DNA of 64,000 nucleotides from contig NC_086380.1 of the NCBI RefSeq assembly GCF_036588685.1, positions 76,198,001 to 76,262,000 on the forward strand, written 5' to 3'. The stretch is from Mytilus trossulus (lineage: Eukaryota). Positions 5,355 through 63,690 of this stretch are shown in pieces. Positions within the stretch are counted from its first letter, which is position 1, and each line of letters begins with the position of its first letter. The notes below the pieces were generated by a model that did no database searches, was not told the DNA's origin, and saw only the letters and a list, made by a program, of their open reading frames with translations. Position numbers and translations under genes: made by a program.

Positions 5355-7004
5355 ATGGCATCAACTAGGTTCTGTGATCCTTGTTCCGAAGCTGACAAGT
5401 CTTCAACAGCAACAAAGTATTGCTCTGACTGTGAAGAAAGACTTTGTACAGACTGTGATGAATCACATTGCAGATTCAAAGCCTTCAAATCTCACCATGT
5501 TATCGACCTGACGTCCATCGGATCCAATAAACTGATGCCTGCGATAAAAAACTGCAATGTCCATTCAGGGATGCTTTTGGATTATTACTGCACAGATCAT
5601 GATATCGTTTGCTGTAGAGCCTGCATATCTAATGAACACAGGATTTGTCAGAACGTACTCCCATTGGAACTGGCCTCGAAGGATGTAAAAAAGTCTGCAC
5701 TGTTTAACGATGTTATGGAAGACATGACGCATCTTATTACAACATTGAATGCTTTGGACAATAACAGACAGTCAAACTTACAATCTATGAAGGAATCTAA
5801 ATCAACAATAACTAAGAAGATCCGAGCAGTGAAATCCAAATTTTTGAAACAAATTGACGATTTGGAGCGTGAATTAACGACCACTTTGTCATCTCTCCAA
5901 CGAAAACATGAAATGGAAATCAACAAACAAAAGCAAGAAATATCGCAAGTCTTGGTCAATGTTATAGAAAATAAAGACGAGATGGATTTTTTGAGAGATC
6001 ATGGATCTAAGAATCAGCTCTTTATATTCCTTCGCCAACAAGTAACAAATATTCATAGCGCCGAGGCCAAGATTCAGCAGATAGTATCCGATTCACAAGA
6101 ATTCAATATAACCTTTGACGAAAAGAAATATGGTAAGCTTGAGTCTTTCGGGTCACTGTCAGAGTATGTCCAACCATGTCAAGTTCAATACAAACCAAAG
6201 AAATTTCAACAAGCCCAGATAAAGGCAGAACCAATGAAAAATATTCTAGGGTTTAAGAAGGATACAGTATTAAAATTTAATACTGATGTGGTAAAAAGTA
6301 TTTTGAGTGTATCAGTGACAGATAATAATAAGCTCCTCATTACTAATACAGCATCATCTGATACCAAACTGTATGTTTACAGAGACTGTAAAGATTATGA
6401 AACAGAGATAGCTTTTTCCTCCGAACCTCATGGTGTTGTTGTGATACCTGGTACGGACAGAGCTGTTATTACCCTACCTAACGAGAATTCTATACAATTC
6501 ATCACTACGACAAAGATGACAAAGGACAACAAAGTTAACGTTGGATTTACATGTTATGGTATCACTGCTGGACATGACAGAATTTACGTTGGTGGTACAG
6601 GTGGTACTATCAAAACATTAGACCCCAATGGGACAGTTCTAAAAACGATTCAACAAGGATCTAATGATATTTTCTTCATAGCATATGATGATATTCATGA
6701 TCATTTGATTGTTAGATGTCATGACAAACTCCTATGTATCAAAGTAGATGGAACACAAGTATACAGCAAGGACGTCTCAGGTTTAGCAGGAGTAACACGC
6801 GATAGGCGTGGTAACATTTACTACGGTTGTTACTATGCCAACAGCATACAGAGAATATCATCAGATGGTGAAAACTGTGAAGAAATGCTGAACAAAGACA
6901 ATGGCATTTACCGTCCGTATGGAATGTGTTTTAATAACGACTTCACGAAACTGTTTGTAATTAATAACGAAGGTAAATCTGTTCGTGTATACAAATGCAA
7001 GTAA
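5355..7004 (+). CDS. RING-less TRIM-like protein (2 B-boxes, coiled coil, NHL-type beta-propeller), paralogue 1, 549 aa
   Basis: Intact ORF. B-box1 CDPC..YCSDC..LC..C..H..H, B-box2 CNVH..YYC..H..CC..C..H, heptad-rich helical region, propeller repeats (PHGVVV, CYGITAG, PYGMCF). True start is ATG 5355 (MAS.., shared by all paralogues), 11 nt after the polypyrimidine-CAG acceptor at 5341-5343. Confidence 0.9.
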   Translation: MASTRFCDPCSEADKSSTATKYCSDCEERLCTDCDESHCRFKAFKSHHVIDLTSIGSNKLMPAIKNCNVHSGMLLDYYCTDHDIVCCRACISNEHRICQNVLPLELASKDVKKSALFNDVMEDMTHLITTLNALDNNRQSNLQSMKESKSTITKKIRAVKSKFLKQIDDLERELTTTLSSLQRKHEMEINKQKQEISQVLVNVIENKDEMDFLRDHGSKNQLFIFLRQQVTNIHSAEAKIQQIVSDSQEFNITFDEKKYGKLESFGSLSEYVQPCQVQYKPKKFQQAQIKAEPMKNILGFKKDTVLKFNTDVVKSILSVSVTDNNKLLITNTASSDTKLYVYRDCKDYETEIAFSSEPHGVVVIPGTDRAVITLPNENSIQFITTTKMTKDNKVNVGFTCYGITAGHDRIYVGGTGGTIKTLDPNGTVLKTIQQGSNDIFFIAYDDIHDHLIVRCHDKLLCIKVDGTQVYSKDVSGLAGVTRDRRGNIYYGCYYANSIQRISSDGENCEEMLNKDNGIYRPYGMCFNNDFTKLFVINNEGKSVRVYKCK

Positions 7005-10735: not shown

Positions 10736-11210
10736 CGTCTTTTATTGTAATTGTATGTAATTGTATGTCAAGCGTGCCATAAAACTATCACTACAAACTG
10801 CGCAGAGTCTGAATTGACCAGTTTTTGTGCTTGACCAGTAAAATCGAGCACACATTTTACTCGACTAGTCTCGACATTGTCTTGACTGGACTTAACTGTA
10901 CTTAAGTGTACTCGACTAGGTCTCGACTTTACTTAATTAGTCTGAAATGGTTTTGACCAAGGCTTGACCTGTCTCGACCTGTCTTGACTATTCTCGACTC
11001 AGTCTGAACCAGTCTCGACTAGTCTTGACTCAGTCTCGACTAGTCTTGACCTTCAAATTTAGTTTTAACTGGTATAAAGAAGCCCATCTAACTAAATTAA
11101 ATATTGATCTTACAAAATTCAAGCTTATTAGGTAGTCTGATTACTGGCTGTGAAATAAAAAAAAAAAAAATTTACAATAGGTAAAAATAAAAATTATTAT
11201 ATAAATTCAG

Positions 11211-12930
11211 ATAGGCATCTTTAAATTTTCTTATTACTTTTTCAAATCAACTTGGATTTTCATCAAACTATGCACCTATCTAAGATATATATCAAGCTTA
11301 CTGAATCCCATTTTATTTACTTTTTTGTTGTATAGCTATGAAATTTAAGAACTAAAGTCATCTCGGTAAAAAAAGCTAGGATTTGCAATTTGGACAAAAT
11401 AGAGATAGGCATCTTTAATTTTTTAATAACTTTTTCAAAATCACTTGGATTTTCATCAAGCTATACAGCTATCTTAGATATATATGAAGCTTACTGAATC
11501 CCATTTCATTTACTTTTTTGTTGTATAGCTGTAAAATTTAAGAATTAAAGTCATCTCGATAAAAAAACCTAGGATTTGCAATTTGGACAAAATAGAGATA
11601 GGCATCTTTAATTTTTTAATAACTTTTTCAAATCAACTTGGATTGTCATCAAACTATGCAGCTATCTTAAATATATATCAAGCTTACTGAATCCCATTTC
11701 ATTTACTTTTTTATTGTATTGCTGTAAAATTTAGGAATTAAAGAAATGTTGGTAAAAAAAGCTAGGATTTGCAATTTCGGACAAAATAGAGATAGTACAC
11801 TTTAAATTTTCTAATAACTTTTTCAAAATCACTTGGATTTTCATCAAACTATGCAGCTATCTTAGATATATATCAAGCTTATTGAATCCCATTTCATTTA
11901 CTTTTTTGTTGTATTGCTGTAAAATTTAAGAATTAAAGTCATCTCGGTAAAAAAAGCTAGGATTTGCAGTTCAGACAAAATAGAGATAGGCATGTTTAAT
12001 TTTTTTAATAACTTTTTCAAATCAACTTGGATTGTCATCAAACTATGCAGCTATCTTAAATATATATCAAGCTTACTGAATCCCATTTCATTTACTTTTT
12101 TATTGTATTGCTGTAAAATTTAGGAATTAAAGAAATGTTGGTAAAAAAAGTTAGGATTTGCAATTTCGGACAAAATAGAGATAGTACACTTTAAATTTTC
12201 TAATAACTTTTTCAAAATCACTTGGATTTTCATCAAACTATGCAGCTATCTCAGATATATATCAAGCTTATTGAATCCCGTTTCATTTACTTTTTTGTTG
12301 TATTGCTGTAAAATTTAAGAATTAAAGTCATCTCGGAAAAAAAATCTAGGATTTGCAGTTCAGACAAAATAGAGATAGGCATCTTTAATTTTTTTAATAA
12401 CTTTTTCAAATCAACTTTGATTGTCATCAAACTATGCAGCTATCTTAGATATATCAAGCTTACTGAATCCTATTTCATTTAATTTTTTATTGTATTGCTG
12501 TAAAATTTAAGAATTAAAGAAATGTTTGTAAAAAAAGCTAGGATTTGCAATTCGGACAAAATAGAGATAGTACACTTTAAATTTTCTAATAACTTTTTCA
12601 AATCAACTTGGATTTTGATCAAACTAGGCAGCTCTCTTAGATATATATCAAGCTTACTGAATCCCAGGTTATTTTGTTTTTTGTTGAATTGCTGTCAAGT
12701 TAAAGAATTTAATTAATCTAGGTCAAGAAAGCTAGAATTTGCAGTTCAACCAAAATAAAGATAGTTCACTTTAATTTTTTTAATATTTTTTTCAAGTCAA
12801 CTTGGATTTTATTCAAACTATATAGCTACCTTGGTGATGTATCAGTTTTACTGAAACATAGGTTGTTATTTAGTTTAGTGTATTTCTGTCAAATTTAAGA
12901 ATTTAATTAGTCTACATGTAGGTTGAAAAG
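11211..12930 (+). repeat. ~194-bp tandem satellite, ~9 units, with a ~388-bp dimer pattern
   Basis: Unit marker atagg/atagt at 11211, 11405, 11598, 11792, 11986, 12181, 12375, 12567 and 12761. Variants agtcatctcgg and agaaatgttgg alternate. Confidence 0.93.
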
Positions 12931-13605
12931 CTTCAATATTAGATATATATCTTTCCTCATAATTTTGGAAAAAGTATATATAAATTAGTTATATAATTCC
13001 TTTAATGTTTTATTCCTTTTGATATATATATTCTATAAATATATCAAAAAGCAAAGAAAAAATAAAGAAATTATTCAAATAGTTCTTCTGATTTGCGATG
13101 ATTTATAAGGCAATACCTTCTATTTGGGGCAAACTTATTAAAAAGATCACATCTACCAGAGTTTTAAATTCTAAATAACATTTATTCAAAGTTGCAACAT
13201 CCTGTTAAATCTAAATCGCAAGGCTTTTTTAATTCTCTTGATAAGTAATACATGAGTTTAAGAAAAGTAGGGCTTTCTTTTTACCTGTAAAACTCAGGTG
13301 TACTGATGTAATTAAACCATTTATAGTGCCATGTCATTAAATTTGACAAAAAAATATTTTAAGATTTGATTAAAATAAATTTTTACTGTAACTTTGAAAC
13401 ACATTTCTTTTTTTAAAAGGTTATCAAGGATTGTTGTGAAACTTCATGATATTATTTTTTTGTTTTACTACAAAAAAAGGGGTTTATTTTGTTTAAGCTG
13501 ATTTTAAAAAGATATAAAATCTTAAAAAAGACACCTTTTTTTTGTTAAAACAAAAATTTAATATTTTTATTTAAAGAAAGATATATTTCGAATATCAAAG
13601 CTTTT

Positions 13606-14725
13606 TGACCTACATGTAGATTAATTAAATTCTTAAATTTGACAGAAATACACCAAACTAAATAACAACTTATGGTTTAGTAAGATATTTAGCAAGAATA
13701 TTGCAAATATAGTTATAGAGTTTGATGAAAATCTAAGTTTATTTCAAAAAATTAAAGTGTATTTTGTCAAAACTGCAAATCCTAGCTTTTTTACCTATAA
13801 TACGTTGATTCTTAAATTTTACAGCAATACAACCAAAAGCTAAATAACCTGGGTTTCAAGAAGCTTGATATGTATCTAAGATAGCTGCATAGTTTGATCA
13901 AAATCGGTGTTGATTTGAAAAAGTTATTAAAAAATTTAAAGTGTACTATCTCTATTTTGTCTGAATTGCAAATTCTAGCTTTTTTACCAACATTACTTTA
14001 AATCTTAAATTTTACAGCAATACAACAAAAAAGTAAATGAAATGGGATTCAGTAAGCTTGATATACATCTAAGATAGCTGCATAGTTTGATGACCATTCA
14101 AGTTGATTTGAAAAAGATATTAAAAAAAATAAAGATGCCTATCTCTATTTTGTCCAAATTGCAAATCCTAGCTTTTTTTACCGAGATGACTTTAATTCTT
14201 AAATTTTACAGCTATACAAAACAAAAGTAAATGAAATGGGATTCAGTAAGCTTGATATATATCTAAGATAGCTGCATAGTTTGATGACAATCCAAGTTGA
14301 TTTGAAAAAGTTTTAAAAAAAATTAGAGATGCCTATCTCTATTTTGTCTGAATTGCAAATCCTAGCTTGTTTTACCGAGATAACTTTAATTCTTAAATTT
14401 TACAGCAATACAACAAAAAAGTAAATGAAATGGGATTCAGTAAGCTTCATATATATCTAAGATAGCTGCAAAGCTTCATGAAAATCCAAGTGATTTTGAA
14501 AAAGTTATTAAAAAAATTAAAGATGCCTATCTCTAATTTGTCCAAATTTCAAATCCTAGCTTTTTTTACCGAGATGACTTTAATTCTTAAATTTCATAGC
14601 TATACAACAAAAAAGTAAATAAAATGGGATTCAGTAAGCTTGATATATATCTTAGATAGGTGCATAGTTTGATGAAAATCCAAGTTGATTTGAAAAAGTA
14701 ATTAGAAAATTTAAAGATGCCTATC
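13606..14725 (-). repeat. Inverted ~194-bp satellite array (~6 units), right arm of the CACTA element
   Basis: Reverse complement of the 11211-12930 unit (gatgcctatctctattttgtc, aatgggattcagtaagcttg). Confidence 0.9.
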
Positions 14726-15299
14726 TGAATTTATATAATAATTTTTATTTTTACCTATTGTAATTTTTTTTTTTTTATATTTCACAGCCAGTAATCAAAC
14801 TATCTACTAAAGCTTGAATTTGTAAGATCAATATTTAATTTAGTTAGATGGGCTTCTTTATACCAGTCAAAACTAAATTTGAAGGTCAAGACTAGTCGAG
14901 ACAGGTCGAGACTGGTTCAGACTGAGTCGAGACTAGTCGAGACAGGTCAAGACTGGTTCAGACTGAGTCGAGACTAGTCAAGACTGGTCGAGACAGGTCG
15001 AGCCTTGGTCAAGACCATTTCAGACTAATTAAGTAAAGTCGACACCTAGTGGAGTACACTTAAGTACAGTTAAGTCCAGTCGAGACAATGTCGAGGCTAG
15101 TTGAGTAAAATGTGTGCTCGATTTTACTGGTCGAGCACAAAAACTGGTCAATTCAGACTCTGAGCAGTTTGTAGTGTATACCTGTAGTGTCTCCAATGAG
15201 GTTTGAGTATTGAATCGAATTCATGTTTTTGTGGTTAATATACTGTTTTGAAATAAAAATTAAAAAAAAAAAATATCATACCACATTATTCACGATCCG

Positions 15300-15720
15300 A
15301 TTGAGACACTTGACCACCGAACTTTTGTTTTTTTTATACCATCGACGTATCGAGGATTATAACATTTTATAATTGTACGTCTCTACTTCATTGTGTCCAA
15401 AAAAAATTTCGTTCACTTATTTTAGTTTGCATCGTCCAAGTGTTAGAGCATCATCAATATTAATTTGTGAATCTTAATGACCCGGCTTCTTTGAAATTCT
15501 TGTTTTGACAAGTGTCTGAAGGATCTCCGATTCGTACAAAATTAGGAGAGATCGGCAAGAAGAAGTGCATAGTTCGTTCCCATTGGATTGACGACAATTT
15601 GTTGAACAAGTCTACCTCCAAATGAAAAAGATATATTGTCAAAATAAAACTTGCTACGTTTATTTACGCTCTTTCTTTGAACGCTACTTGGATATTTGTA
15701 ATAGTTTATTGGCTTTTTTG
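15300..15720 (-). mobile_element. Penelope-like RT fragment (duplicated at ~19530-19960)
   Basis: Minus strand reads GGRLVQQIVVNPMGTNYALLLADL, matching the RT motif PMGTNCAPLLADL. Confidence 0.7.
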
Positions 15721-22148: not shown

Positions 22149-23744
22149 ATGGCATCGGCTAGTTTATGTGATCCTTGTTCCGAAGCTGACAAGTCTTCAA
22201 CAGCAACAAAGTATTGTTCTGACTGTGAAGAAAGACTTTGTACAGACTGTGATGAATCACATTGCAGATTCAAAGCCTTCAAATCTCACCATGTTATCGA
22301 CCTGTCGTCCATCGGATCCAATAAACTTATGCCTGCGATAAAAAACTGCAATGTCCATTCAGAGATGCTTTTGGATTATTATTGCACAGATCATGATATC
22401 GTTTGCTGTAGAGCCTGCATATCTAATGAACACAGGGTTTGTCAGAACGTTCTCCCATTGGAACTTGCCTCGAAGGATGTAAAAAAGTCTGCACTGTTTA
22501 ACGATGTTATGGAAGACATGACGCATCTTATTACAACATTGAATGCTTTAGACAATAACAGACAGTCAAACTTACAATCAATAGAGGAATCCAAATCAAC
22601 AATAACTAAGAAGATCCGAGCAGTGAAATCCAAATTTTTGAAACAAATTGACGATTTGGAGCGTGAATTAACGACCACTTTGTCATCTCTCCAACGAAAA
22701 CATGAAATGGAAATCAACAAACAAAAGCAAGAAATATCGCAAGTCTTGGTCAATGTTATAGAAAATAAAAACGAGATGGATTTTTTGAGAGATCATGGAT
22801 CTAAGAATCAGCTCTTTATATTCCTTCGCCAACAAGTAACAAATATTCATAGCGCCGAGGCCAAGATTCAGCAGATAGTATCCGATTCACAAGAATTCAA
22901 TATAACCTTTGACGAAAAGAAAGATGGTAAGCTTGAGTCTTTCGGGTCACTGTCAGAGTATGTCCAACCATGTCAAGTTCAATACAAACCAAAGAAATTT
23001 CAACAAGCCCAGATAAAGGCAGAACCAATGAAAAACATTCAAGGGTTTGAGAAGGATACAGTATTAAAATTTAATACTGATATGGTAAAAAATCTTTTTA
23101 GTGTATCAGTGACAGATAATAATAAGCTGCTCATTACTAATGCAGCATCCTCCGATCCCATACTCTATGTTTATAGAGACTGTAAAGATTATGAGACAGA
23201 GATAGTTTTTTCCTCCGCACCTCATTGTGTTGCTGTGATACCTGGTACGGACAGAGCTGTTATTACCCTACCTATCGCGAAGTCTATACAATTCATAAAT
23301 ACGACAACGATGACAAAGGACAACAAAGTTAAAGTCGGATTTATATGTGTTTGTATCACTGCTGGACGTGACAGAATTTACGTTGGTGGTGATTATGGTA
23401 CTATCAAAACATTAGACACTAATGGAATAATACTTAAAACAATTCAACAAGGATTTGATAATATTTTATTCATAGCATACGATGATATTCATGATCATTT
23501 GATTGCTAGATGTCATGGTAAACTCCTTTGTATCAAAGTAGATGGAACACTAGTTTACAGTAAGGACGTTTCAGGAGTAGCAGGTTTAACACTTGATCGA
23601 CAGAGGAACATTTATTTTGGCGGTTTTAATACAAACATCATACAAAGAATGTCAACAGATGGAGACAATTGTGAAGAAATGCTGAACAAAGACAATGACA
23701 TTGACCGTCCGTATGCAAGTACTTGTAAAAACTTGAAAACTTAA
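22149..23744 (+). CDS. RING-less TRIM-like paralogue 2, last propeller blade lost by a ~76-bp frameshifting deletion (possibly a pseudogene)
   Basis: 531-aa ORF, N-terminal half nearly identical to paralogue 1. At 23715/23716 'ccgtatg|caagtacttgtaa' skips the GMCFNNDFTKLFVINN..VYK segment. The canonical CAG acceptor 10 nt before the ATG reads TAA (22136-22138). Confidence 0.75.
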   Translation: MASASLCDPCSEADKSSTATKYCSDCEERLCTDCDESHCRFKAFKSHHVIDLSSIGSNKLMPAIKNCNVHSEMLLDYYCTDHDIVCCRACISNEHRVCQNVLPLELASKDVKKSALFNDVMEDMTHLITTLNALDNNRQSNLQSIEESKSTITKKIRAVKSKFLKQIDDLERELTTTLSSLQRKHEMEINKQKQEISQVLVNVIENKNEMDFLRDHGSKNQLFIFLRQQVTNIHSAEAKIQQIVSDSQEFNITFDEKKDGKLESFGSLSEYVQPCQVQYKPKKFQQAQIKAEPMKNIQGFEKDTVLKFNTDMVKNLFSVSVTDNNKLLITNAASSDPILYVYRDCKDYETEIVFSSAPHCVAVIPGTDRAVITLPIAKSIQFINTTTMTKDNKVKVGFICVCITAGRDRIYVGGDYGTIKTLDTNGIILKTIQQGFDNILFIAYDDIHDHLIARCHGKLLCIKVDGTLVYSKDVSGVAGLTLDRQRNIYFGGFNTNIIQRMSTDGDNCEEMLNKDNDIDRPYASTCKNLKT

Positions 23745-24889
23745 AATCGGATTTTTATGGCATTGTGTTATTCACATGTACATAGTAAATATATTTAGTT
23801 TGTTTGTTTTTTGTATAATTTTCGATTTTCATTTTAGGCGAGTGACTTAACCATAAAATAAAAATTTTAATGCACCTACCTAACACACGGCTAAATTATA
23901 AATCATTTTAAAGCTACACATCTGTACTATCTGTTTTGGCCGGTCGTAAAAAAATCGTACGGTGCAATTTCTGTCAAATCGAGATCAAAGGCCAAGGACG
24001 AATAAGTGCATATTTTCGAAGATTTCAGCCTGATTGCATTATATGACTTTTATGTACTTAATTCACATATGCAAACAATTTAAACTTTTAGCAGAGCGAT
24101 TAACAGTCACTATTCAAATGCATTTTTTAATATTTAAAGCGTGTTTTTGACAAAGAGCACATGTTTCCTAAAATTCGAGTAAAAGTTAACAAAATGTGTG
24201 AAAACCCAAATTTTTCTTTCTGGTGCAACTGCTAATCACTTTAAACTAAGTAAAACCCTGTAATGACTATTAAAGAAGTTTTTGACATCATAAAATTTCC
24301 TAAAAGTAAGCTTACTTCTAATCAAACAGCAAATCAAAACAACTCATATAGTTGCCCAAAATACCGCCATCGTCGAAAACACAGCTTTATTAGAATTTCT
24401 TCCTAAAGTATTTAAACAATGTATGTGGTCAATATAAGATTTAATAAACAAATTCTTAACAATCTGAAAAATTTAGAGTAAAAAAATATGTACGCGAATC
24501 ATCTTATTGCTTGAAATAAAGGGGGTGAAACTAAGAGATTGCAATCTGCATTGTAACTACCAGTCTGAAATAAACATATTTTGACTTTTCTAATTGTTTG
24601 ATTTGTAGCTTCATTATAAATAATGATGTAGTGAAAAAAACCTTTATATTTATTTTATATGAATTAAAAATTTAGACCAAAACAAATAAAAATAAATTGA
24701 TGAAAATTGAAATTTCAAAGAATTTAAAAAAACTAGTAAACACATTATAAAACTTGATTTCTTGATTGCTTGAATTGCGTTGTCCATGTTTACACGTATT
24801 AATTCATAAAATAAGAATAATTTTGAAGAAAAAATATCCATTTATACGCAAAGATTCTAGTTATAACTAGACTTCCTGAATAGCTCGAA

Positions 24890-25257: not shown

Positions 25258-25292
<35 letters not shown>

Positions 25293-33870: not shown

Positions 33871-33916
33871 TGTGTTGTGTTTGCAAGTCAACCGTAAATA
33901 CCTGCAAATACGTAAG

Positions 33917-35876
33917 CTGCAACATCCATTCAGAAATGATTTTAGATTATTAGTATACAGACCATGAGATCGTATACCATATATACTGAAGAGCCTGTAT
34001 ATCTAATGAACACAGGGTTAGTCAGAACGTACTTCAATTGGAACTTGCCTGAATGGATGTCAAAATGTCTGCACTGTTTGATGATGTTAGTAAAGACACA
34101 ACAATGCACAAAGCATCTTATTACAACATTGAACGCTTTGAGCGATAACAGACAGAAAAACTTACAATCAATAGAGAAATATAGATTCTTACACTGCAAC
34201 AAGTGTATTGCGATATTTCTCCACTCGAGACAGTTAAATTTTAGTATGTAAAGCGCGAGGCTTACCGGGCCCTTCAAATAATAAGATTTAACTGTCGTGA
34301 GTGGAGAAATATCGTAATACACGAGATATAGTGTCGGAATCTGTTTCTCTAATGCTTTTTATCGTTCTTTTTCAAAGATTTTCAGAAAATTGTGCTCTTT
34401 ATATGCGACGTCATCAGGCAAGGTCGCCTTTTTTCATGTTGTCACAATAGGAAAATTGAAAAGAAAACAAAAAATTTTGACGTCATAATCAAATTTAGAC
34501 TAATCATTTGCCGAGAACAGATTTTTCACTAGTGAGGAGAAATATTTTTCTCACACCGGTCAGAAAAGCTGAAAATAGCACAAAAATTAGAGAATTCTAA
34601 ATCATCAATAACTAACCAGATTCGAGTAAAGCAGTTAAATCCAAATTGTGAAACAAATAGACGAGTTGGAGCGTGAACTTTCTACGAGGTTCTCATTTCT
34701 TCAACGAAAACATAAAAAAATGAATAAACAAACAAAAGCAAGAAATGTCACAGGTCTTGGTCGATGTAATAGAAAATAAAACCGAAATGGATTTCTTACG
34801 AGATTATGGATTAAGGTATCAGATGTTTATATTCTTCGATAAAAAGTAACAAATATTCATAGTACCGAGGCTAAGATTCAGCAGATCGTATCCAAATCAC
34901 AAGAAATCGATATTATCTTTCATGAAAAGAAAAATTTTAAGCTCGAGTTTTTCAGGTCACTGTTAGAAAAATTATTAACCACGTCTGCTTCAATACAGAC
35001 CAAAGAGATTTCAGATAATGACCGAACCAAAGAATCGTATTGTCGAGTTTAAGAAGGATGATACAGAATTAAGAGTTAGAACTGAATCCTATGAAAAAAA
35101 AAGAGGGACGCAAGATACCAAAGGGACAGTCAAACTCATAAATGTAAAACAAACTGACAAAGCCATGGCTAAAAATGAAAAAAGACAAACAGAAAAACAA
35201 TAATACACATGACACAACATAGAAAACTAAAGAATATGTTTACAAAAAATGCAAAGATTATGAGATAAAGATACCATTTTCCCCTATTCTTTAAGGTGTA
35301 GCCGTGATACCTGATATCAATAGAGCTGTTGTTACTCTATCTGAATATCAGTCCATACAGTTTATAAACACTACAACGATGAAAAAAGACAAGAAAGTTA
35401 ACGTAGGATTTACATGTTATGGTATTACTGCTGGACGCGAGAGAGTGTACGTGGGTGGTGAAGGTGAAATTATCAGAACATTAGACATCAATGGGAAAAT
35501 TCTTAAAATACATTTGTAATTCAACAAGGATTTAATTGTATTTTCTTCATTGCATATGATGATATACATGATCAATTAATTGTTAGATGTCTTGACAAAC
35601 TCCTTTGGATAAAATTAAATGGAACACTTGTATACAGTAAGGACGCGTCAGGATCAGCAGGAGTAACAATTGATCGACAAGGGAACATTTATTGCGGTAG
35701 TTCCACGACCAACAACATACAGAAACTATCATCAGATAGAGAAATAAAAGGAAGAAATTCTTAACAAAGACAATGACATTAGACATCCGTCTGGAATGTG
35801 TTTTAATAATGACTTCACCAAACTGTTTGTCATTAATAACGTTTACGAGTCCGTATATGTATTCAAATGCAAGTAC
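33917..35876 (+). pseudogene. TRIM-like pseudogene (paralogue 3), 5'-truncated, with stops, frameshifts and two insertions
   Basis: Homology runs from B-box2 (ctgcaacatccattcagaaatgattttagattattag) to the FKCKY end. Fragments such as HLITTLNAL and KVNVGFTCYGITAGRERVYVGG remain. Insertions at ~34181-34595 and ~35093-35234. B-box1 is absent. Confidence 0.88.
34181..34595. mobile_element. ~415-bp insertion in pseudogene 3
   Basis: Interrupts caatcaatagagaa..tctaaatcatcaata. tagagaa is repeated on both sides (34172-34178 and 34588-34594) as a possible TSD. Family unknown. Confidence 0.7.
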
Positions 35877-41979: not shown

Positions 41980-43638
41980 ATGGCAACAGCTAGTTTCTGT
42001 GATCCTTGCTCTGAAGCTGACAAGTCTTTAACAGCAACAAAATATTGCTCCGACTGTGAAGAAAAACTTTGTACAGACTGTGCTGATTCACATTGCAGAT
42101 TCAAAGCATTCAAATTTCATCATGTTATCGATCTGTCGGCTTTCGGATCAAATAAATTCATTTTTGCGAAGAAAAACTGCAATGTCTATTCAGAAATGAT
42201 ATTGGATTATTACTGCACAGATCATGAGATCGTATGCTGTAGAACCTGCATATCTAATGAGCACAGGCTTTGTCAGAACGTTCTCCCATTGGAACTTGCC
42301 TCGAAAGATGTTAAAAAGTCTGCACTGTTTAACAATGTTATGAAAGACATGACGCATCTTATTACAACATTGAGTGCTTTAGATAATAACAGACAGTCAA
42401 ACTTACAATCAATGGAAGAATCTAAATCAGCAATAAACAAGCAGATCCGAGCAGTGAAATCCAAATTGCTGAAACAAATTGATGAGTTGGAGCGTGAACT
42501 TACAACCAGTTTCTCGTCTCTCCAACGAAAACATGAAATGGAAATCAACCAACAAAAGCAAGAAATATCACACGTCTTGATCGATGTAGAGGAAAAGAAA
42601 AATAAAATGGATTTTTTAAGAGATCATGGATCAAAGAATCAGCTTTTTGTATTCTTGCGACAACAATTAACACATATTAATAGCACCGAAGCTAAGATTC
42701 AACAGATGGTATCCAATTCACAAGAATTCGATATTATCTTTGATGAAAAGAAAGATGGCATGCTTGAATCTCTTGGGTCCCTGATAGAGTATGTCCAACC
42801 TTGTCTAGTTCAATACAAACCACAGAAATGTCAACACCCCCAAATAAAGGCAGAACCGATGAAATACATTATTGGGTTTGAGAAGGATACAGGATTAAAA
42901 CTTGAAATTGGCGAAACATATGCTCTTCGAGATGTAACAGTCACAAACGATAATAAGCTACTTATCACTAATACATCATCATTCGATCCCAAACTCTATG
43001 TTTACAGAGACTGTGAAGATTATGAGACAGAGATAAGATTTTCCTCCGAACCTCATGGTGTTGCTGTGATACCTGGTACGGACAAAGCTGTTATTACCTT
43101 ACCTAACAAGAAGTCTATACAATTCATAAATACTAAAGATATGACAAAGAGCAACACAGTTAAAGTTGGATTTACATGTGTTGGTATCACTGCTGGACGT
43201 GACAGAATTTATGTTGGTGGTGTACATGGTGTAGGCGGTATTATTAAAATATTAGACACCAACGGGTCAATTTTGAAAACAATTAAACAAGAATCTGATT
43301 TTATTTGTTTCATAGGATACGATGGTAGAAAGGAAAAATTGATTGTTAGGTGTCTTGACAAACTCCTTTGTATTAAATTAGATGGAACACTATTATACAG
43401 TAAGGTCATTTCAGGAATATCAGGTATAACACTTGATCGACAGGGCAAGCTCTATTTCTGCGATTACCATGGCAGCAACATTCAAAGAATATCATCAGGT
43501 GGGAAATGCAGTGAAAAAATGCTGAACAAAGACAATAGTATTAACAAAACGTATGGAATGAGTGTTAACAATGACTTCACAAAACTGTTTGTTATGCATA
43601 ATCATTATAAGTGTGTATATAAATGCAAGTACTTGTAA
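41980..43638 (+). CDS. RING-less TRIM-like paralogue 4 (most divergent intact copy), 552 aa
   Basis: Intact ORF with the same architecture. Acceptor AG at 41968-41969, 10 nt before the ATG. B-box2 has CNVY in place of CNVH. 3-aa loop insertion (GGVHGVGG). Confidence 0.88.
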   Translation: MATASFCDPCSEADKSLTATKYCSDCEEKLCTDCADSHCRFKAFKFHHVIDLSAFGSNKFIFAKKNCNVYSEMILDYYCTDHEIVCCRTCISNEHRLCQNVLPLELASKDVKKSALFNNVMKDMTHLITTLSALDNNRQSNLQSMEESKSAINKQIRAVKSKLLKQIDELERELTTSFSSLQRKHEMEINQQKQEISHVLIDVEEKKNKMDFLRDHGSKNQLFVFLRQQLTHINSTEAKIQQMVSNSQEFDIIFDEKKDGMLESLGSLIEYVQPCLVQYKPQKCQHPQIKAEPMKYIIGFEKDTGLKLEIGETYALRDVTVTNDNKLLITNTSSFDPKLYVYRDCEDYETEIRFSSEPHGVAVIPGTDKAVITLPNKKSIQFINTKDMTKSNTVKVGFTCVGITAGRDRIYVGGVHGVGGIIKILDTNGSILKTIKQESDFICFIGYDGRKEKLIVRCLDKLLCIKLDGTLLYSKVISGISGITLDRQGKLYFCDYHGSNIQRISSGGKCSEKMLNKDNSINKTYGMSVNNDFTKLFVMHNHYKCVYKCKYL

Positions 43639-44111
43639 AAACTTGAAAACTTAAATTCGGATTTTTATAAAATTGTGTTATCCATATGTACTTAGTAAAT
43701 ATATCTAGTTTGTATGTTTTTTTTGTACAATTTTAGATTTTCATTTGATGTTTAGAAGAAAATAACAATATAGGTCAAATTCTAATTTAATTATGTCGTC
43801 TGGCATGGCGTTATTTTATAGGAAGGCGTTGCACATTGATACATAGTTCAAAACGTCATGACATAGCAAATCTAAATCTATGTTTGCTGTTTAAAAGTCA
43901 TAAATCGATTGAATGAAAATAAATCCGGGTTACAAACTAAAACCGATCGAAACTCATCAACTATATAAGAGGGAAACAAAGAAACAAGATAACACTGAAG
44001 TGCATTAAAAAAAGCAAGCGACAATTTGAAACACAAATTACAAAGGAAGTACTTACAAGGAGAGCAAAAGAGGAACAGAAAGACATTTGAAATATATATA
44101 TATATATATAC

Positions 44112-53250: not shown

Positions 53251-53674
53251 TTGTGAATGATCATTATATCGAGCCAATTTAAGTAACTATAAGGTATTTA
53301 TATATTTCTTTCTGGTCGCATTAGAGTATACTCGACGTGTCAACAAGACGACACGTTTATAGAACGGTATTCACTATGAATGGTTTACCGCCGGTAGTTT
53401 TAAGTCATTAACCATTCCAATCTTATAACAAAACGCCGTTCTGCTATTAGTTAACGGATGGTTGTTTTTTTCTTTATTTTAAAAGGCAATTGAATGTTCA
53501 ATTCTAGAAGGGTGAACATCCTATGTACAAATTTGCATGCATAAATTGATAAATTGTTTCTGCTAAAACTACTCTATAAAATTGAATTAAGAAAATTAAG
53601 GAAAACCTTTTGATTAGAAACGTAAAGAACACGTTTCATTTTTATTTACTATTTTTTTTTCCAGAAATCATTCT

Positions 53675-55330
53675 ATGGCATCAAGTAGTTTCTGTGATCC
53701 TTGTTCCGAAGCTGACAAGTCTTTAACAGCAACAAGGTATTGCTCAGACTGTGAAGAAAGACTTTGTACAGACTGTGCAGAGTCACATTGCAGATTCAAA
53801 GCTTTTAAATTTCACCATGTTATCGACCTGTCGTCCATTGGATCCAATATTCTTATGCCCGCGAAGAAACACTGCAATGTCCATTCAGAAATGATATTGG
53901 ATTATTACTGCACAGACCATGAGATCGTATGCTGTAGAGCCTGCATATCTAATGAACACAGGGTTTGTCGGAATGTACTCCCATTGGAACTGGCCTCGAA
54001 GGATGTAAAAAAGTCTGCACTATTTAACGATGTTACGGAAGACATAACGCATCTTATCACAACATTGAGTGCTTTAGACAATAACAGAGAGTCAAACTTA
54101 CAATCACTAGAGAAATCAAAATCAACAATAACTAAGAAGATCCGAGCAGTGAAATCAAAATTTTTGAAACAAATTGAAGATTTGGAGCGTGAATTAACGA
54201 CCACTTTTTCATCTCTCCAACGAAAACATGAAATCGAAATCAACAAACAAAAGCAAGAAATATCGCAAGTCTTGGTCAATGTTATAGAAAATAAAAACGA
54301 GATGGATTTTTTGAGAGATCATGGATCTAAGAATCAGCTCTTTTTATTCCTTCGCCAACAAGTAACAAATATTCATAGCGCTGAGGCCAAGATTCAGCAG
54401 ATAGTATCCGATTCACAAGAATTCGATATTACCTTTGACGAAAAGAAAGATGTTAAGCTTGAGTCTTTCGGGTCACTGTTAGAGTATGTCCAACCATGTC
54501 AAGTTCAATACAAACCAAAGAAACTTCAACAAGCCCAGATAAAGGCGGAACCAATGAAAAATATTCTAGGGTTTGAGAAGGATACATTATTAAAACTTAA
54601 TACTGATGTGGTAGAACTTTTTGTTAGTGTATCAGTGACAGATGATAATAAGCTCCTCATTACTAATACAGCATCATCCGATACCAAACTCTATGTTTAC
54701 AGAGACTGTAAAGATTATGAGACAGAGATAACATTATCCTCCGCACCTCATTGTGTTGCTGTGATACCTGGTACCAACAGAGCTGTTATTACCCTACATA
54801 ACGAACAGTCTATACAATTTATAAATACGACAACGATGACAAAGGACAACAAAGTTAAAGTCGGATTTACATGCTATGGTATCACTGCTGGACATGACAG
54901 AATTTTTGTTGGTGGTGATTATGGTACTATCAAAACATTAGACACCAATGGGGCAATTCTAAAAGCAACCACACATGGATCTAAATGTATTTACTTCATA
55001 GCATACGATGATTTACAAGATCAGTTGATTGTTAGATGTTGTAACAAGCTTCTTTGTGTCAAAGGAGATGGAACACTGGTGTACAGTAAGGACGTTTCGG
55101 GACAAGCAGGTTTAACACTTGATCGACGGAGGAACCTTTATTTTGGTGGTTTTTCAACTCACAACATACAAAGAATGTCAACAGACGGGGAAAATTGTGA
55201 AGAAATGCTGAACAAAGACAATGACATTAACCGTCCGTATGGAATGTGTTTTAACAATGACTTCACAAAATTATTTGTTATTAATAACCGTTGCACGTCC
55301 GTATGTGTATATAAATGCAAGTACTTGTAA
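53675..55330 (+). CDS. RING-less TRIM-like paralogue 5, 551 aa
   Basis: Intact ORF with all Cys/His ligands present. Acceptor (t)n-ccAG at 53663-53664, 10 nt before the ATG. Confidence 0.9.
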   Translation: MASSSFCDPCSEADKSLTATRYCSDCEERLCTDCAESHCRFKAFKFHHVIDLSSIGSNILMPAKKHCNVHSEMILDYYCTDHEIVCCRACISNEHRVCRNVLPLELASKDVKKSALFNDVTEDITHLITTLSALDNNRESNLQSLEKSKSTITKKIRAVKSKFLKQIEDLERELTTTFSSLQRKHEIEINKQKQEISQVLVNVIENKNEMDFLRDHGSKNQLFLFLRQQVTNIHSAEAKIQQIVSDSQEFDITFDEKKDVKLESFGSLLEYVQPCQVQYKPKKLQQAQIKAEPMKNILGFEKDTLLKLNTDVVELFVSVSVTDDNKLLITNTASSDTKLYVYRDCKDYETEITLSSAPHCVAVIPGTNRAVITLHNEQSIQFINTTTMTKDNKVKVGFTCYGITAGHDRIFVGGDYGTIKTLDTNGAILKATTHGSKCIYFIAYDDLQDQLIVRCCNKLLCVKGDGTLVYSKDVSGQAGLTLDRRRNLYFGGFSTHNIQRMSTDGENCEEMLNKDNDINRPYGMCFNNDFTKLFVINNRCTSVCVYKCKYL

Positions 55331-57400: not shown

Positions 57401-58605
57401 AGGAGTAGGTACCGATTTTGGCCTCAAATTTCAAGTTCATCTGACGAAAGATTTTGACTACTTTTTAAACACTCAAGTATCTACTTCATTTGAATAAATT
57501 AGGATATGTAAAAGATTTTTGCTGATTTAGTCATTAAAAACGATCCGATTCATGCTCAAATATGACAAATCTACCAAATGTGCCGAAAAATGTAACTTTT
57601 CAGATCGTTTTTGTTCAAAATGAAAGTGGCCGCATCCGGGTTCATCCTCAACCTTTATATATGTTATGTATTATCATCAAATACAACTGATTTCATATCG
57701 GTTAAGAATAAGCTTATCTTATTGGATAAAAAGAGGCCACATTACATTCTTTATTCTTCAGTAATAAGTTCCATCGGACATTAACAGAACACCGGTCGTT
57801 AACAGACTTTTAAATGATAATGACCGGTGGGGCGTAGTTTGTCTGTTTGAGAGACGATCCGTAATAAAACGCAACGCGATTTAGACGTGTTTTCACTTTA
57901 CAGTTAGGAAAATGGAAGACGCGTCTACTAGTGTAGACAACTTTAATGACCGTTTTACTATTGATGAAATTAAAGTAAACTTCATTTTGTATTTTAAATA
58001 TTGAAGTGTATTATACTGATATCTAAAACTATGACCAGTTTTCACTCTTTCCTAAAGAATTTGAACATTATCTCACGGTAATTTTTAACAATTTGAATGT
58101 ATGAATTCTTTTTAAAACATACATGTAGTTTCTCAATGAAATAAACATAATAGTTATTGATAAACCTGTCATTATCGTGATATATGGACAGCCCTTAGGA
58201 CGGTTGTATTGACCGCGACAGCGATAATGACCTCACCTTTGGCTCAGTCATTATCGTTGTCTCAGTCAATACCACGGTCCTGTGGGTAGTCTATATATCA
58301 CGATATTGACCAGTTTTTCAATAACTATTATTTAATTACTTTTCAATAAAAAGGATGAACACGAATGCGGCCACTTTAGTTTTACACGAAACCGTCTAAA
58401 ATTTAATTAAAATGCGGGAATTGTGAAGATTTCAGTACTCTGGCATGACTTAATGGTGTTAATACCCGATATATGTGCATTGTCCTATCAAAAATAACCC
58501 ATATTTATGTAGCAGAAGCATTCTACTGTCCAATAAATAACTAAAAGTTTACATTTTAACAATTTTGTAAAGCTGCTAAAAAGGGGGCTTACTGGACCTA
58601 CTCCT
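57401..58605. mobile_element. TTAA-targeting (Kolobok-like) MITE with a nested ~640-bp insertion (~57700-58340)
   Basis: TTAA|AGGAGTAGG...CCTACTCCT|TAAA. Empty site at ~30535-30550. An uninterrupted relative lies at 61355-61856. Confidence 0.8.
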
Positions 58606-59775
58606 TAAAACTGTTCACTAGACTTTTAACGCTAATTTTTGAATTTTGGGGTTTACAACTTTCTTTGTCAATAAATCTATACAGATCTGAATCGCTAAAT
58701 ACTTTAATATCTCGCCAATTCTATTAAACTCTTTTGTTTTATGAATCAAAATTCCTGTTCTTATTATATCCTATAATTTGGTGTATTGAAAAGTTTCCTA
58801 CTGTATTAATAACATGCGAATATATAAAACAGATGCATGTAACCTGCGATCTTTCATTTATTTGATTTGGTTTTTATCTGTGTGTTGTCGGTAGAAATCT
58901 ACCTAGGACGTATTATATCACATGTTATACTAATACGTCATACATAGAATTTCTTACATAAGGGAGGAATAACATATGATTTTCAAAAACTTTCATAGCA
59001 AAAATTCGAATTTTGTTTGTTTTCCTTAACTGTAACCCTGATCTAAAAAAAAACACGGTAAAGTTTGTAAGTTACTTTTGTTGTTCTGTTTTTATGACGA
59101 TGTAATTTATGTTAACCTTGTTTCAGTAGAATTAAATTTATTTTCAAAAGCATTTTCTTAAGTCTACCAGAGAGGATAATTAATTATTCTCCTACAATTA
59201 GACAGGTATCTATGTTCTGTTATGCATCGGTCTGAGTCTGCAACAATTGTTTATGAATAAGTGGATAGTATCAAATGACTCATTACAACATATATATAGA
59301 AAAAAACTTAAAAAGAACAAAGAAAATAAAGAAAAGAAAAGATGACATACAATAAAAACACTTATAATTGACTGAAAATGCAGTGTACGTGGTTTATTCA
59401 TTTCGTTTTAAAAAATCAAAACAGGGTACGTTTATGCACACTGTTTCGTATCATTTCGTATGGTATCGTTAAATTTTTGTATTCTAAATTTTTTGAATGA
59501 ACGTTAACATGGTTGTTATATATAAGTGGATAGGTCGATTGTTTTTTTTTTTTTCAAATTTGGCTATTTTGTTGTGTGTCTGTCTTTGACTTTCCTCTTT
59601 ATTTACTACTTGTCCATCTTTTCGTATAAATGATAAATGAGAAAAAATATCTTAAAGTGAATATAAAGTCTACATCTTTAAATAAATTTACATTATTGTT
59701 TTTTTTTTGCATTATACATATTATAAGACATCTGTATGTGTCAATATTTCCGTAAATGATAATCGAAAAAACAAA

Positions 59776-60247
59776 TATATGTACTGTAGCTGGCATGATT
59801 ATCTATTGTATATATACTGTAGCTGGCATGATAATCTATTGCATATATACTGTAGCTGGCATGATTATCTTTTGTATATATACTGTAGCTGGCATGATTA
59901 TCTATTGTATATATACTGTAGCTGGCATGATTATCTATTATATATATACTGTAGCTGGCATGATTATCTATTGTATATATACTGTAGCTGGCATGATTAT
60001 CTTCTATTGTATATATACTGTAGCTGGCATGATTATCTATTGTATATATACTGTAGCTGGCATGATTATCTATTGTATATATACTGTAGCTGGCATGATT
60101 ATCTATTGTATATATACTGTAGCTGGCATGATTATCTATTGTATATATACTGTAGCTGGCATGATTACATGTATCTATTGTATATATACTGTAGCTGGCA
60201 TGATTATCTATTGTATCTATACTGTAGCTGGCATGATTATCTTCTAT
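59776..60247. repeat. 33-bp minisatellite, 14 copies
   Basis: Unit tatatatactgtagctggcatgattatctattg repeated with no spacers. Confidence 0.95.
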
Positions 60248-61049: not shown

Positions 61050-61354
61050 AAAATACAAAATGTCAATCCTGGTATCAATGATGAGTTTATTGACATTCCT
61101 TTTTTTCTAGGTCAGATATTGCTAAAAAATATATAAAAACAAAAAAAAACCATAAGAAACCCAAAACAAACAATATAACACAACAATGGATTCATGCGTA
61201 AATTTTTTTATTAAAAAATGAACTCATTCAGCCAGTTTCATATCATAATACATGATGTAATATACAAATAACATTTTGCACGATCCGATCGAGGCAATGG
61301 ACAACCGTTTTTTTAAATGATGTTTCAGAGGTGTACTCGTTATGATAAGATTAA

Positions 61355-61856: not shown

Positions 61857-62137
61857 TTAAAAATGATCAAATTATTATAGTATTATTAAAATATACTCAA
61901 AATCTCCAACTTTTACTTCAGTTTAACAAGACGATTTGTTTATGGTACAGTATCGAACATGAATGGTTCAGCTGTGGTAGTTTAAGTCATATTACAAGAT
62001 CGCAAGCAAAATGTATTAACCTTTTACTGCTAATCTTGCTCATCATGGAAACTGGCTTAAAATAAGAATATGTAGAACAATATTATGATTTGGAGTATAA
62101 TCAAACCACACTAATCCTTTATTTCAGAAGGTTTACT

Positions 62138-63690
62138 ATGGCATCAGCTAGTTTCTGTGATCCTTGCTCTGAAGCTAATAAGTCATTAACAGCAACAAAA
62201 TATTGCTCCGACTGTGAAGAAAGACTTTGTACAGACTGTGCAGAATCACATTGCAGACTAAAAGCTTTTAAATCTCACCATGTTATCGACCTGTCGTCCA
62301 TTGGATCCAATATTCTTATGTCCGCGAAGAAACACTGCAATGTCCATTCAGAAATGATATTGGATTATTACTGCACAGACCATGAGATCGTATGCTGTAG
62401 AGCCTCCATATCTAATGAACACAGGGTTTGTCAGAACGTACTCCCATTGGAACTGGCCTCGAAGGATGTAAAAAAGTCTGCACTGTTTCACGATGTTATG
62501 GAAGATATGACGCATCTTATTACAACATTGAATGCTTTAGACAATAACAGAGAGTCAAACTTACAATCTATGGAGAAAACTAAATCAACAATAACTAAGA
62601 AGATCCGAGCAGTGAAATCCAAATTTTTGAAACAAATTGACGATTTGGAGCGTGAATTAACGACCACTTTGTCATATCTTCAACGAAAACATGAAATCGA
62701 AATCAACAAACAAAAGCAAGAAATATCGCAAGTCTTGGTCAATGTTATAGAAAATAAAAACGAGATGGATTTTTTGAGAGATCATGGATCTAAGAATCAG
62801 CTCTTTATATTCCTTCGCCAACAAGTAACAAATATTCATAGCGCTGAGGTCAAGATTCAGCAGATAGTATCTGATTCACAAGAATTCGATATAACCTTTG
62901 GTAAGCTTGAGTCTCTCGGGTCACTGTCAGAGTATGTTCAACAATGTCAAGTTCAATACAAACCAAAGAAATTTCAACAAGCCCAGATAAAGGCGGAACC
63001 AATGAAAAACATTCAAGGGTTTGAGAAGGAAACAGTATTAAAATTTAATACTGATGTGGTAAAAAGTCTTTTGAGTGTATCAGTGATAGATAATAATAAG
63101 CTGCTCATTACTAATGCAGCATCCTCCGATCCCATACTCTATGTTTACAGAGACTGTAAAGATTATGAGACAGAGATAGCTTTTTCCTCCGCACCTCATT
63201 GGGTTGATGTGATACCTGGTACCAATAGAGCTGTTATTACTCTACCTTACGAAAAGTCTATATAATTTATAAATACGACAACGATGACAAAGGTCAACAA
63301 AGTTAAAGTCGAATTTACATGTTATGGTATCACTGCTGGACATGACAGGGTTTACGTTGGTGGTCAAGATGGTACTATCAAAACATTAGACACAAATGGG
63401 ACAATTCTAACAACGATTCAACAAGGATATGGAAATATTTTCTTCATGGTATACAATGAGGTACAGCAGGTTTAACACTTGATCGACAGAAAAACATTTA
63501 TTTTTGCGGTTTTGAGACCAACAACATACAAAGAATGTCATCAGATGGAGAAAATAGTGAAGAAATGCTGAACAAAGACAATGACATTGACCGTCCATTG
63601 GGAATGTGTTTTAACGAAGACTTCACAAAACTGGTTGTTATCAATGAAAGTGGCAAGTCCGTATATGTATACAAGTGCAAGTACATGTGA
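62138..63690 (+). pseudogene. TRIM-like pseudogene (paralogue 6)
   Basis: ATG 62138 follows acceptor AG 62126-62127. CAA>TAA nonsense at 63263-63265, 15-bp in-frame deletion (DEKKD lost), B-box2 Cys>Ser (CCRAS), ~88-bp frameshifting deletion near 63465. Homology ends at YKCKYM* (TGA 63688-63690). Confidence 0.88.

What the first reader, a model, noticed from the sequence alone, without database searches (positions are those of the whole stretch)
6237..63690. Propeller patches are shuffled between paralogues, including pseudogenes (gene-conversion mosaicism)
Seen: sharing switches partner along the gene. The B-box region groups 1+2 (SSTATKY, KLMPAIKNC) against 5+6 (SLTAT, NILMxAKKHC). KNILG and NTASSDTKL group 1+5, while KNIQG and NAASSDPIL group 2+6. 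SSEPHG groups 1+4, SSAPHC and GGDYG group 2+5, GTNRA groups 5+6, YDDIHDHLI groups 1+2, and CVxITAGRDR groups 2+4. The 3' flank of paralogue 2 best matches paralogue 4 (aaaacttgaaaacttaaa.tcggattttta). No single tree fits. Inference: short conversion tracts or unequal crossovers recombine loop variants, and broken copies may act as donors.
Basis: partly seen in the sequence, partly recalled or inferred. Interest (0 to 1): 0.75.

Follow-up and report, generated by a model that had tools for sequence, protein, structure and literature searches.

The report
Recombined mussel TRIM-like propeller gene array
Six neighbouring copies of a mussel zinc-finger/propeller gene (three intact, three broken) are patchworks of one another and differ most on one predicted face of the propeller, which likely lets recombination between copies remix a binding surface, a known strategy of immune gene families; broken copies acting as donors is not shown.

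Summary
The window holds six same-strand copies of a Mytilus gene: B-box, B-box, coiled coil, six-bladed NHL-like propeller, no RING. Copies 1, 4 and 5 are intact; 2, 3 and 6 are broken. Silent divergence of copies 1 and 2 rises from 0.05 to 0.39 along the gene while that of copies 2 and 4 stays flat. Within the propeller the window alone is weak (p=0.04); only the 2+6 patch and copy 1's 3' third hold up, and several listed motifs are one or two sites or common states. Adding 29 database paralogues makes propeller mosaicism overwhelming (z=-10.6), with clean single-switch chimaeras. Variation concentrates on the predicted top-face loops (pN/pS about 1.1 against 0.26-0.46 elsewhere). Pseudogene donation is unsupported: copy 3 shows no recent exchange and copy 2 looks like a recipient. 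Likely germline unequal crossover plus gene conversion, as in fish btr TRIM and NLR-B30.2 families. Real, and a new member of a known kind.

The parts
5355..7004 (+). Copy 1, intact single-exon CDS, 549 aa: two B-boxes, coiled coil, six-bladed NHL-like propeller
   Evidence: ORF ATG..TAA; Pfam zf-B_box above cutoff; model and Foldseek
22149..23744 (+). Copy 2, 531 aa; a 76-nt deletion near 23715 (3-nt ATG microhomology) frameshifts and removes most of the last blade; likely non-functional; the most mosaic copy
33915..35876 (+). Copy 3, old pseudogene: no first B-box, six in-frame stops, a 416-nt insertion at 34180 and several frameshifts
41980..43638 (+). Copy 4, intact, 552 aa; divergent lineage with a whole-length counterpart in M. 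edulis (P0015)
53675..55330 (+). Copy 5, intact, 551 aa
62138..63690 (+). Copy 6, pseudogene: 15-nt deletion near 62900, TAA at 63263, 88-nt frameshifting deletion near 63458
5403..5609 (+). B-box tract grouping 1+2 (22197-22403) against 5+6 (53723-53929, 62186-62392): 5 and 8 differences within the pairs, 24-26 between
23034..23162 (+). Blade-1 patch of copy 2 shared privately with copy 6 (aa 296-338): 5 differences to copy 6, 13 to copy 1
   Evidence: A332/P337/I338 in 0 of 32 other proteins
63008..63136 (+). The same blade-1 patch in copy 6: 5 differences to copy 2, 18 to copy 5
6807..6905 (+). 3' tract where copy 1 leaves its B-box partner: 22-23 differences to copies 2, 5, 6, which differ from each other by 10-15
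23346..23399 (+). Micro-patches of copy 2: V401 shared with copy 4 (43177-43200) and GGDYG shared with copy 5 (54911-54925); too short to test singly
23716..23834 (+). 3' end and flank of copy 2, 89% like copy 4 (43626-43746) and 82% like copy 5

Best explanation
This is a tandem array of RING-less TRIM-like genes of a Mytilus mussel whose copies are sequence mosaics, most likely made by germline recombination between misaligned copies (unequal crossover and gene conversion), which likely remixes the variable loops on the predicted top face of the propeller. Shown: the six copies, their lesions, the change of genealogy along the gene at silent as well as replacement sites, and the concentration of amino-acid variation in the d-a and b-c loops of the model. 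Inferred: the near-identical coiled-coil exon segment (0-4% apart among copies 1, 2, 5, 6 over nt 481-720) and the conserved strands offer the homology for mispairing; crossovers give chimaeras that switch parent once and run to the gene's end, conversion gives internal patches of tens to about 200 nt; the same mispairing changes copy number and leaves broken copies. Also inferred, and weaker (about 0.55): the protein dimerises through the coiled coil and uses the propeller's top face to bind variable foreign ligands in innate immunity, so selection keeps new loop combinations. Broken copies take part as by-products and recipients; a donor role is untested.
For: PHI p=0.0002, silent p=0.0014; 0 of 450 single-tree simulations as extreme. 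Silent divergence 1-2: 9/173 in aa 1-290 and 25/65 in aa 421-549 (Fisher p=1e-9), while 2-4 (49/171, 18/64) and 4-3 (45/125, 26/74) do not change, so regional mutation rate does not explain it. Breakpoint scan: AICc 9273 for one tree, 9125.6 for one topology with free branch lengths, 9077.5 for changing topologies. Triplet test: copy 2 switches from copy 1 to copy 6 at about nt 880, p at the permutation floor, Bonferroni 0.006. In 34 proteins the propeller gives PHI p=0.0002; z=-10.6 in 31 of them against a lowest z of +0.42 in 40 single-tree simulations. Clean chimaeras: P0003 differs from P0006 at 2 of 110 sites in aa 291-400 and 30 of 99 in aa 451-549, and from copy 1 at 16 of 110 and 2 of 99; P0082 and P0012 behave likewise; P0021 is 1 of 53 from copy 2 in B-box 1 but 45 of 190 in the coil. 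Top-face loops: 36% of 66 sites hypervariable against 4% of strand and bottom sites, p=8e-7; pN/pS 1.08 (0.75-1.65) against 0.26-0.46. Best Foldseek hits are NHL domains of TRIM71 and TRIM2.
Against: Window-only tests inside the propeller are weak: PHI p=0.04, 0.49 with copy 3 added, silent p=0.26; the whole propeller does not reject the N-terminal tree (AU p=0.087, third positions 0.43); intact copies alone give silent p=0.46 on 13 sites. The segments were chosen after seeing the data. Top-face pN/pS does not exceed 1 significantly, so relaxed constraint is not excluded. The database proteins are predicted gene models, most of them possibly from the same assembly as the window, and one (P0001) is visibly stitched. 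No child named M. edulis or M. californianus passed Bonferroni (0 of 5; best 0.076). No read or contig spans a junction. No ligand or immune role was tested.
Confidence: 0.82

Rival explanations
1. One tree, with convergent amino-acid changes at hypervariable surface loops creating apparent patches.
For: Several listed motifs are one or two non-silent sites on top-face loops (SSEPHG, V401). Top-face sites are very variable. Window-only propeller PHI is marginal. This likely does account for some micro-patches.
Against: Silent sites co-switch; tracts of 100-150 residues with 0-3 differences change partner in the wider family; simulations with ordered or regional rates never reach the signal.
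Confidence: 0.04
2. The mosaics are assembly or gene-model chimaeras from a collapsed, heterozygous repeat array.
For: The family is highly repetitive and public contigs over copy 1 are short, none spanning the gene. P0001 is a stitched model. Most comparison proteins may share the window's assembly.
Against: Shared tracts in the window are not identical (5 differences in the 129-nt 2+6 patch; longest identical propeller run 60 nt), as expected of older events and not of a copied consensus. Each copy has its own flanks. The copy-1 combination of halves recurs in P0080 and P0084. M. edulis P0022 carries a P0017-like tract only in aa 401-450 (5 of 50, against 35 of 99 after it), though not significant after correction.
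Confidence: 0.06
3. Copies were duplicated from divergent alleles that had already recombined at one locus (high heterozygosity or introgression), with little exchange between loci afterwards.
For: Copies 1, 2, 5, 6 are young (silent divergence 0.04-0.09 in the coil) and mussels carry high variation (PMC7653742, abstract start). This gives the same incongruence among close copies.
Against: Exchange also involves long-separated paralogues: a copy-4-type blade 1 sits in P0024 (7 of 55 from copy 4, 20 of 55 from its otherwise close relative P0018) and a copy-2-type B-box 1 sits in the 72%-identical P0021.
Confidence: 0.08
4. A templated diversification system in which pseudogenes are donor cassettes for intact genes, possibly in somatic cells.
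For: Three of six copies are broken and lie among intact ones; copy 6 shares YGN (aa 436-438) with intact P0006 only (1 of 31); copy 2 shares GGDYG with intact copy 5 only.
Against: No direction from broken to intact can be shown; copy 3 has no recent tract; copy 2 looks like a recipient; tracts have accumulated differences; broken copies are heavily decayed, unlike maintained donor arrays. No somatic data were available.
Confidence: 0.06

Closest known systems
TRIM-NHL proteins (TRIM71/LIN-41, TRIM2, TRIM3, Brat)
   Same: Two B-boxes, coiled coil and a six-bladed propeller; the top Foldseek hits are TRIM71 and TRIM2 NHL domains, TM 0.70-0.77 by target length, 15-16% identity. Database names are 'TRIM71-like' and 'TRIM45-like'.
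   Different: No RING and no filamin domain; the NHL Pfam score is below cutoff; the top face is hypervariable with net charge -4 to +1 in 32 of 33 sequences, whereas Brat's RNA-binding top face is positively charged (PMC4015489, passages); multi-copy and fast-changing.
Zebrafish btr and fintrim TRIM families (B30.2)
   Same: Expanded TRIM paralogues with a variable C-terminal recognition domain; GARD found seven breakpoints in btr B30.2 (PMC3137616, passages).
   Different: PRY/SPRY sandwich there, NHL-like propeller here; RING present there; positive selection shown there, only pN/pS near 1 here.
Zebrafish NLR-B30.2 family
   Same: Gene conversion acting differently on two parts of the gene; the authors propose that short tracts recombine substitutions from different paralogues in the recognition domain (10.1101/027151, passages).
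   Different: NACHT-LRR-B30.2 architecture, hundreds of genes, vertebrate.
Primate chromosome 11 TRIM reservoir
   Same: Recombinationally volatile TRIM cluster with pseudogenes and copy-number change (PMC3228819, passages).
   Different: Only one breakpoint found there and conversion judged not extensive; here the best model has six breakpoints in five copies.
Pseudogene-templated gene conversion of chicken immunoglobulin V genes (recalled, no call)
   Same: Intact and broken copies side by side, patchwork sequences.
   Different: That system is somatic, one-directional and enzyme-driven; none of these is shown here and the broken copies are decayed.

Membership tests
TRIM / TRIM-NHL | N-terminal RING finger | tested here: not met
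   No RING Pfam hit in 4 of 4 proteins; a RING pattern found 0 matches in six frames of the window; the 10-11 nt between the putative splice acceptor and ATG differ in length between copies, against a coding upstream exon. Brat-like RING-less members exist (recalled).
TRIM / TRIM-NHL | One or two B-boxes followed by a coiled coil | tested here: met
   zf-B_box above cutoff in copies 1 and 2, below in 4 and 5; helix 115-246 in the model.
TRIM / TRIM-NHL | Six-bladed NHL propeller | tested here: inconclusive
   Fold met: 24 strands in six blades, best hits NHL domains. Sequence motif not met: PF01436 16.1 bits against cutoff 20 in copy 4 only.
TRIM / TRIM-NHL | Positively charged, RNA-binding top surface | tested here: not met
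   Count of R/K minus D/E over 66 top-loop positions is -4 to +1 in 32 of 33 sequences; only K307 and K514 are conserved. A residue count, not an electrostatic map; RNA binding itself was not testable.
Multigene family under interlocus recombination (birth-and-death with conversion) | Phylogenetic incongruence along the gene | tested here: met
Multigene family under interlocus recombination (birth-and-death with conversion) | Silent sites switch with the patches | tested here: met
   Whole gene p=0.0014, Fisher tests; inside the propeller alone p=0.26, so met for the large tracts only.
Multigene family under interlocus recombination (birth-and-death with conversion) | Junctions exist in single molecules | not testable with these tools
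   Only short assembled contigs were served; none spans the gene.
Variable immune recognition family (btr, fintrim, NLR-B30.2 type) | Positive selection on the binding surface | tested here: inconclusive
   Top-face pN/pS 1.08, 95% range 0.75-1.65, clearly above other parts but not above 1; no codon site model available.
Variable immune recognition family (btr, fintrim, NLR-B30.2 type) | Pathogen binding or induction by infection | not testable with these tools
   RNA runs hold parts of the sequence but contigs give no expression level.
Pseudogene-donor templated diversification | One-way transfer from pseudogenes into functional genes | tested here: not met
   only six copies have DNA, so the test is limited.
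Pseudogene-donor templated diversification | Somatic occurrence | not testable with these tools
   No paired tissue reads.

The most novel reading that the evidence does not exclude
The array is a combinatorial innate-receptor system of mussels: RING-less TRIM-like sensors swap propeller blades and loops as cassettes, broken copies serve as a sequence bank, and new combinations arise fast enough, perhaps in immune cells, to give each animal its own repertoire of binding surfaces.
Probability: 0.07. Interest if true: 0.85.

Novelty: new member of a known kind. Interest (0 to 1): 0.42.

Why it matters
Bivalve TRIM-like genes turn up in large numbers in disease-tolerance transcriptomes (79 transcripts in one oyster module; PMC9892467, passages) and are usually labelled TRIM71-like or TRIM45-like E3 ligases. 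This array suggests that at least one such family has no RING, has a hypervariable rather than RNA-binding propeller face, and is remixed by recombination, so it would be a candidate variable receptor built on an NHL-like fold. Practically, single gene trees, orthologue calls and short-read expression counts are unreliable for these genes. The mechanism itself is well known from fish TRIM and NLR-B30.2 families.

Tried and rejected
No whole genome is held for the window, so DNA of the other paralogues was unavailable. Reads: four runs laid on copy 1 gave only short contigs, no junction-spanning piece, no expression level; this neither supports nor refutes chimaerism. Triplets with copy 3 as minor parent were significant but rejected as donor evidence: its silent divergence from copy 1 is 0.32 in that region and 0.31-0.40 elsewhere and never under 13% total. 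GTNRA and YDDIHDHLI rejected as conflicts (they follow the B-box tree); KNILG and AGRDR rejected (common states). The 3' flank of copy 2 as proof of exchange with copy 4 is weak, since copy 5 may simply have lost 7 nt. A second protein search with the propeller of copy 5 returned 44 proteins, one new, and no allele of copies 2, 5 or 6 from another assembly. Earlier findings of the scan: nothing by place or by words. Literature: nine searches listed no paper on this Mytilus family or its recombination; the library lacks most subscription journals, and I did not open supplements (for example those of PMC7653742, whose main text has no TRIM mention).
Full report
WHAT IS THERE. Self-comparison and tblastn show exactly six copies of one gene, all on the + strand: copy 1 at 5355-7004, 2 at 22149-23744, 3 at 33915-35876, 4 at 41980-43638, 5 at 53675-55330 and 6 at 62138-63690. 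Each CDS is a single exon. Copies 1, 4, 5 are intact. Copy 2 has a 76-nt frameshifting deletion that removes most of the last blade. Copy 6 has a stop at 63263 and deletions of 15 and 88 nt. Copy 3 has six stops, a 416-nt insertion and no first B-box. The closest of 77 database hits are Mytilus trossulus proteins at 72-95% identity, so the organism is a Mytilus mussel. Pfam finds B-boxes and no RING. An AlphaFold model of copy 1 (61-sequence alignment, mean pLDDT 81.6, propeller mostly above 85) shows two zinc-finger modules, a long helix (115-246) and a six-bladed propeller whose best structural matches are the NHL domains of TRIM71 and TRIM2.

OBSERVATION CHECK. Every motif grouping is present. 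I aligned the six CDS on the columns of copy 1 and masked lesions and unalignable stretches. PHI on copies 1, 2, 4, 5, 6 gives p=0.0002 (93 informative sites), p=0.0014 on 35 silent sites and p=0.003 on 58 non-silent sites; with all six copies p=0.001. Simulating on the single best tree with independent, ordered or regionally amplified rates, 0 of 150 replicates in each model reached the observed z of -6.5. Among copies 1, 2, 5, 6 the split 12|56 holds 18 of 19 sites in nt 1-300, while 15|26 holds 7 of 9 in nt 871-1035. Silent divergence of copies 1 and 2 is 9/173 in aa 1-290 and 25/65 in aa 421-549 (p=1e-9), while pairs with the distant copies 3 and 4 stay flat. A breakpoint scan on a 75-nt grid prefers seven segments with changing topologies (AICc 9077.5) over one topology with free branch lengths (9125.6) and over one tree (9273.0); this scan was not calibrated by simulation.

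WHAT IS WEAKER. Inside the propeller alone the window gives PHI p=0.04 (five copies), 0.49 (six) and 0.26 (silent); 4-6 of 150 simulations per model matched its z. The propeller as a whole does not reject the N-terminal tree (AU p=0.087); the aa 291-345 and 476-523 segments do (p=0.03, 0.015), but I chose them after seeing the data. GGDYG (2+5) and V401 (2+4) are private but tiny. GTNRA and YDDIHDHLI follow the B-box tree. SSEPHG is two replacement sites. L298 and R407 are common states.

THE WIDER FAMILY. I aligned the window copies with 29 M. trossulus-named proteins (left out: the stitched model P0001, the partial P0048, the window's own P0007 and P0078, and all hits under 72%) and 5 from M. 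edulis and M. californianus, masking mis-modelled tails in seven. In the 34 window-plus-trossulus sequences (copy 3 excluded) the propeller gives PHI p=0.0002, its halves 0.0002 and 0.008, the coil 0.16-0.26. For 31 of the 34 with enough propeller, z=-10.6, while 40 single-tree simulations gave z of +0.42 or more. In triplet tests on the propeller 15 of 39 children passed Bonferroni over 51,466 triplets; many reflect the same few events, copy 1 was the only window copy among them, and none of the 5 from other species passed. The clearest cases switch once: P0003 is P0006-like to about aa 400 and copy-1-like after; P0082 is P0025-like then copy-1-like; P0012 has a P0016 blade 1 and a P0011 remainder; P0002 has another B-box on a copy-1 propeller. 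The full copy-1 type recurs (P0080, P0084), so copy 2 rather than copy 1 is likely the derived mosaic. These are predicted proteins without DNA, possibly from the window's own assembly.

WHERE THE VARIATION SITS. Using strand limits from the model and the definition of the top surface as the b-c and d-a loops (PMC4015489, passages), 36% of 66 top-loop sites are hypervariable in 24 paralogues, against 4% of 49 bottom-loop and 4% of 134 strand sites (p=8e-7 and 6e-9). In window DNA pN/pS is 1.08 (0.75-1.65) on top loops and 0.26-0.46 elsewhere (uncorrected, pairs not independent). The face is not basic, unlike the RNA-binding face of Brat. This fits a variable ligand-binding surface under diversifying selection, but relaxed constraint is not excluded.

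PSEUDOGENES AS DONORS. Not supported. Copy 3 is at least 13% from every copy in every 120-nt window scored. The 2+6 patch joins two broken copies. V401 is in copy 4 and its M. edulis counterpart, which points from 4 to 2. Copy 6 shares YGN with intact P0006 and copy 2 shares GGDYG with intact copy 5, direction unknown. By eye, the lesions of copies 2 and 6 do not recur in the aligned proteins.

MECHANISM. Most likely germline mispairing of tandem copies, giving unequal crossovers (single-switch chimaeras, copy-number change, broken copies) and conversion tracts (internal patches), with selection on the propeller's top face keeping new combinations. The incongruence and the location of variation are shown; the recombination route, the selection and the immune role are inferred. 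Rivals are convergence on one tree (0.04), assembly or model chimaeras (0.06), duplication of already recombined alleles (0.08) and a pseudogene-donor system (0.06, which overlaps the main reading). Junction-spanning reads were not available.

COMPARISON AND NOVELTY. It works like the zebrafish btr TRIM family (PMC3137616, passages) and the NLR-B30.2 family, for which short-tract conversion remixing the recognition domain was proposed (10.1101/027151, passages), and recalls the primate TRIM reservoir (PMC3228819, passages). It is not a canonical TRIM-NHL protein: no RING, no filamin, no basic top face. B-box families are listed as expanded in bivalves (PMC8382680, passage), and diversification of propellers by recombination was suggested for amphioxus TRADD-N proteins (PMC8195603, passages). 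PMC9334734 (passages) counts only RING-bearing TRIMs in Aplysia. Nine searches listed no paper on this Mytilus family; supplements were not opened. Verdict: real mosaicism, known kind of process, apparently undescribed family. Interest 0.42.

Noticed in passing
window 10789-15176: Large inverted structure (87% over about 1.6 kb): two opposed arrays of a 194-bp unit (11209-12821, 8.3 copies; 13760-14726, 5 copies) bounded by 10-bp GTCTCGACTA-type repeats; looks like a foldback or MITE-type element.
   Followed up: no
window 15187-16623 and 19411-20827: Direct duplication of about 1.4 kb at 91% identity; a 61-bp tandem repeat follows at 16639-16901.
   Followed up: no
window 48108-49284 and 50982-52162: Inverted repeat pair, 85% over 1.2 kb, with shorter inverted pieces between; a probable DNA transposon remnant.
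   Followed up: no
window 1-899 and 58265-59158: A 0.9-kb direct repeat at 96% identity, 58 kb apart; a young element or a possible substrate for unequal crossover in the array.
   Followed up: no
window 59776-60242: 33-bp minisatellite, 13.9 copies, 93% matches; gives spurious long open frames on both strands.
   Followed up: partly
window 5334-5354, 41959-41979, 53654-53674, 62117-62137, 22128-22148: A pyrimidine tract and CAG lie 10-11 nt before the ATG in copies 1, 4, 5, 6, like a splice acceptor after a non-coding first exon; copy 2 reads AAAAG there and may have lost it.
   Followed up: partly
window 41980-43638; P0015: Copy 4 has a whole-length counterpart in M. edulis and is its nearest neighbour in all eight segments, so this lineage seems largely to escape being converted while its blade 1 appears in P0024.
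   Followed up: partly
propeller positions 311, 360, 438 and others (copy 1 numbering): Cysteines appear and vanish at several hypervariable top-face positions across paralogues.
   Followed up: no
window 5787-6074 (nt 433-720 of the CDS): The coiled-coil segment is nearly homogenised among copies 1, 2, 5, 6 (identical runs of up to 177 nt) although the B-box and propeller on either side are far more diverged.
   Followed up: partly
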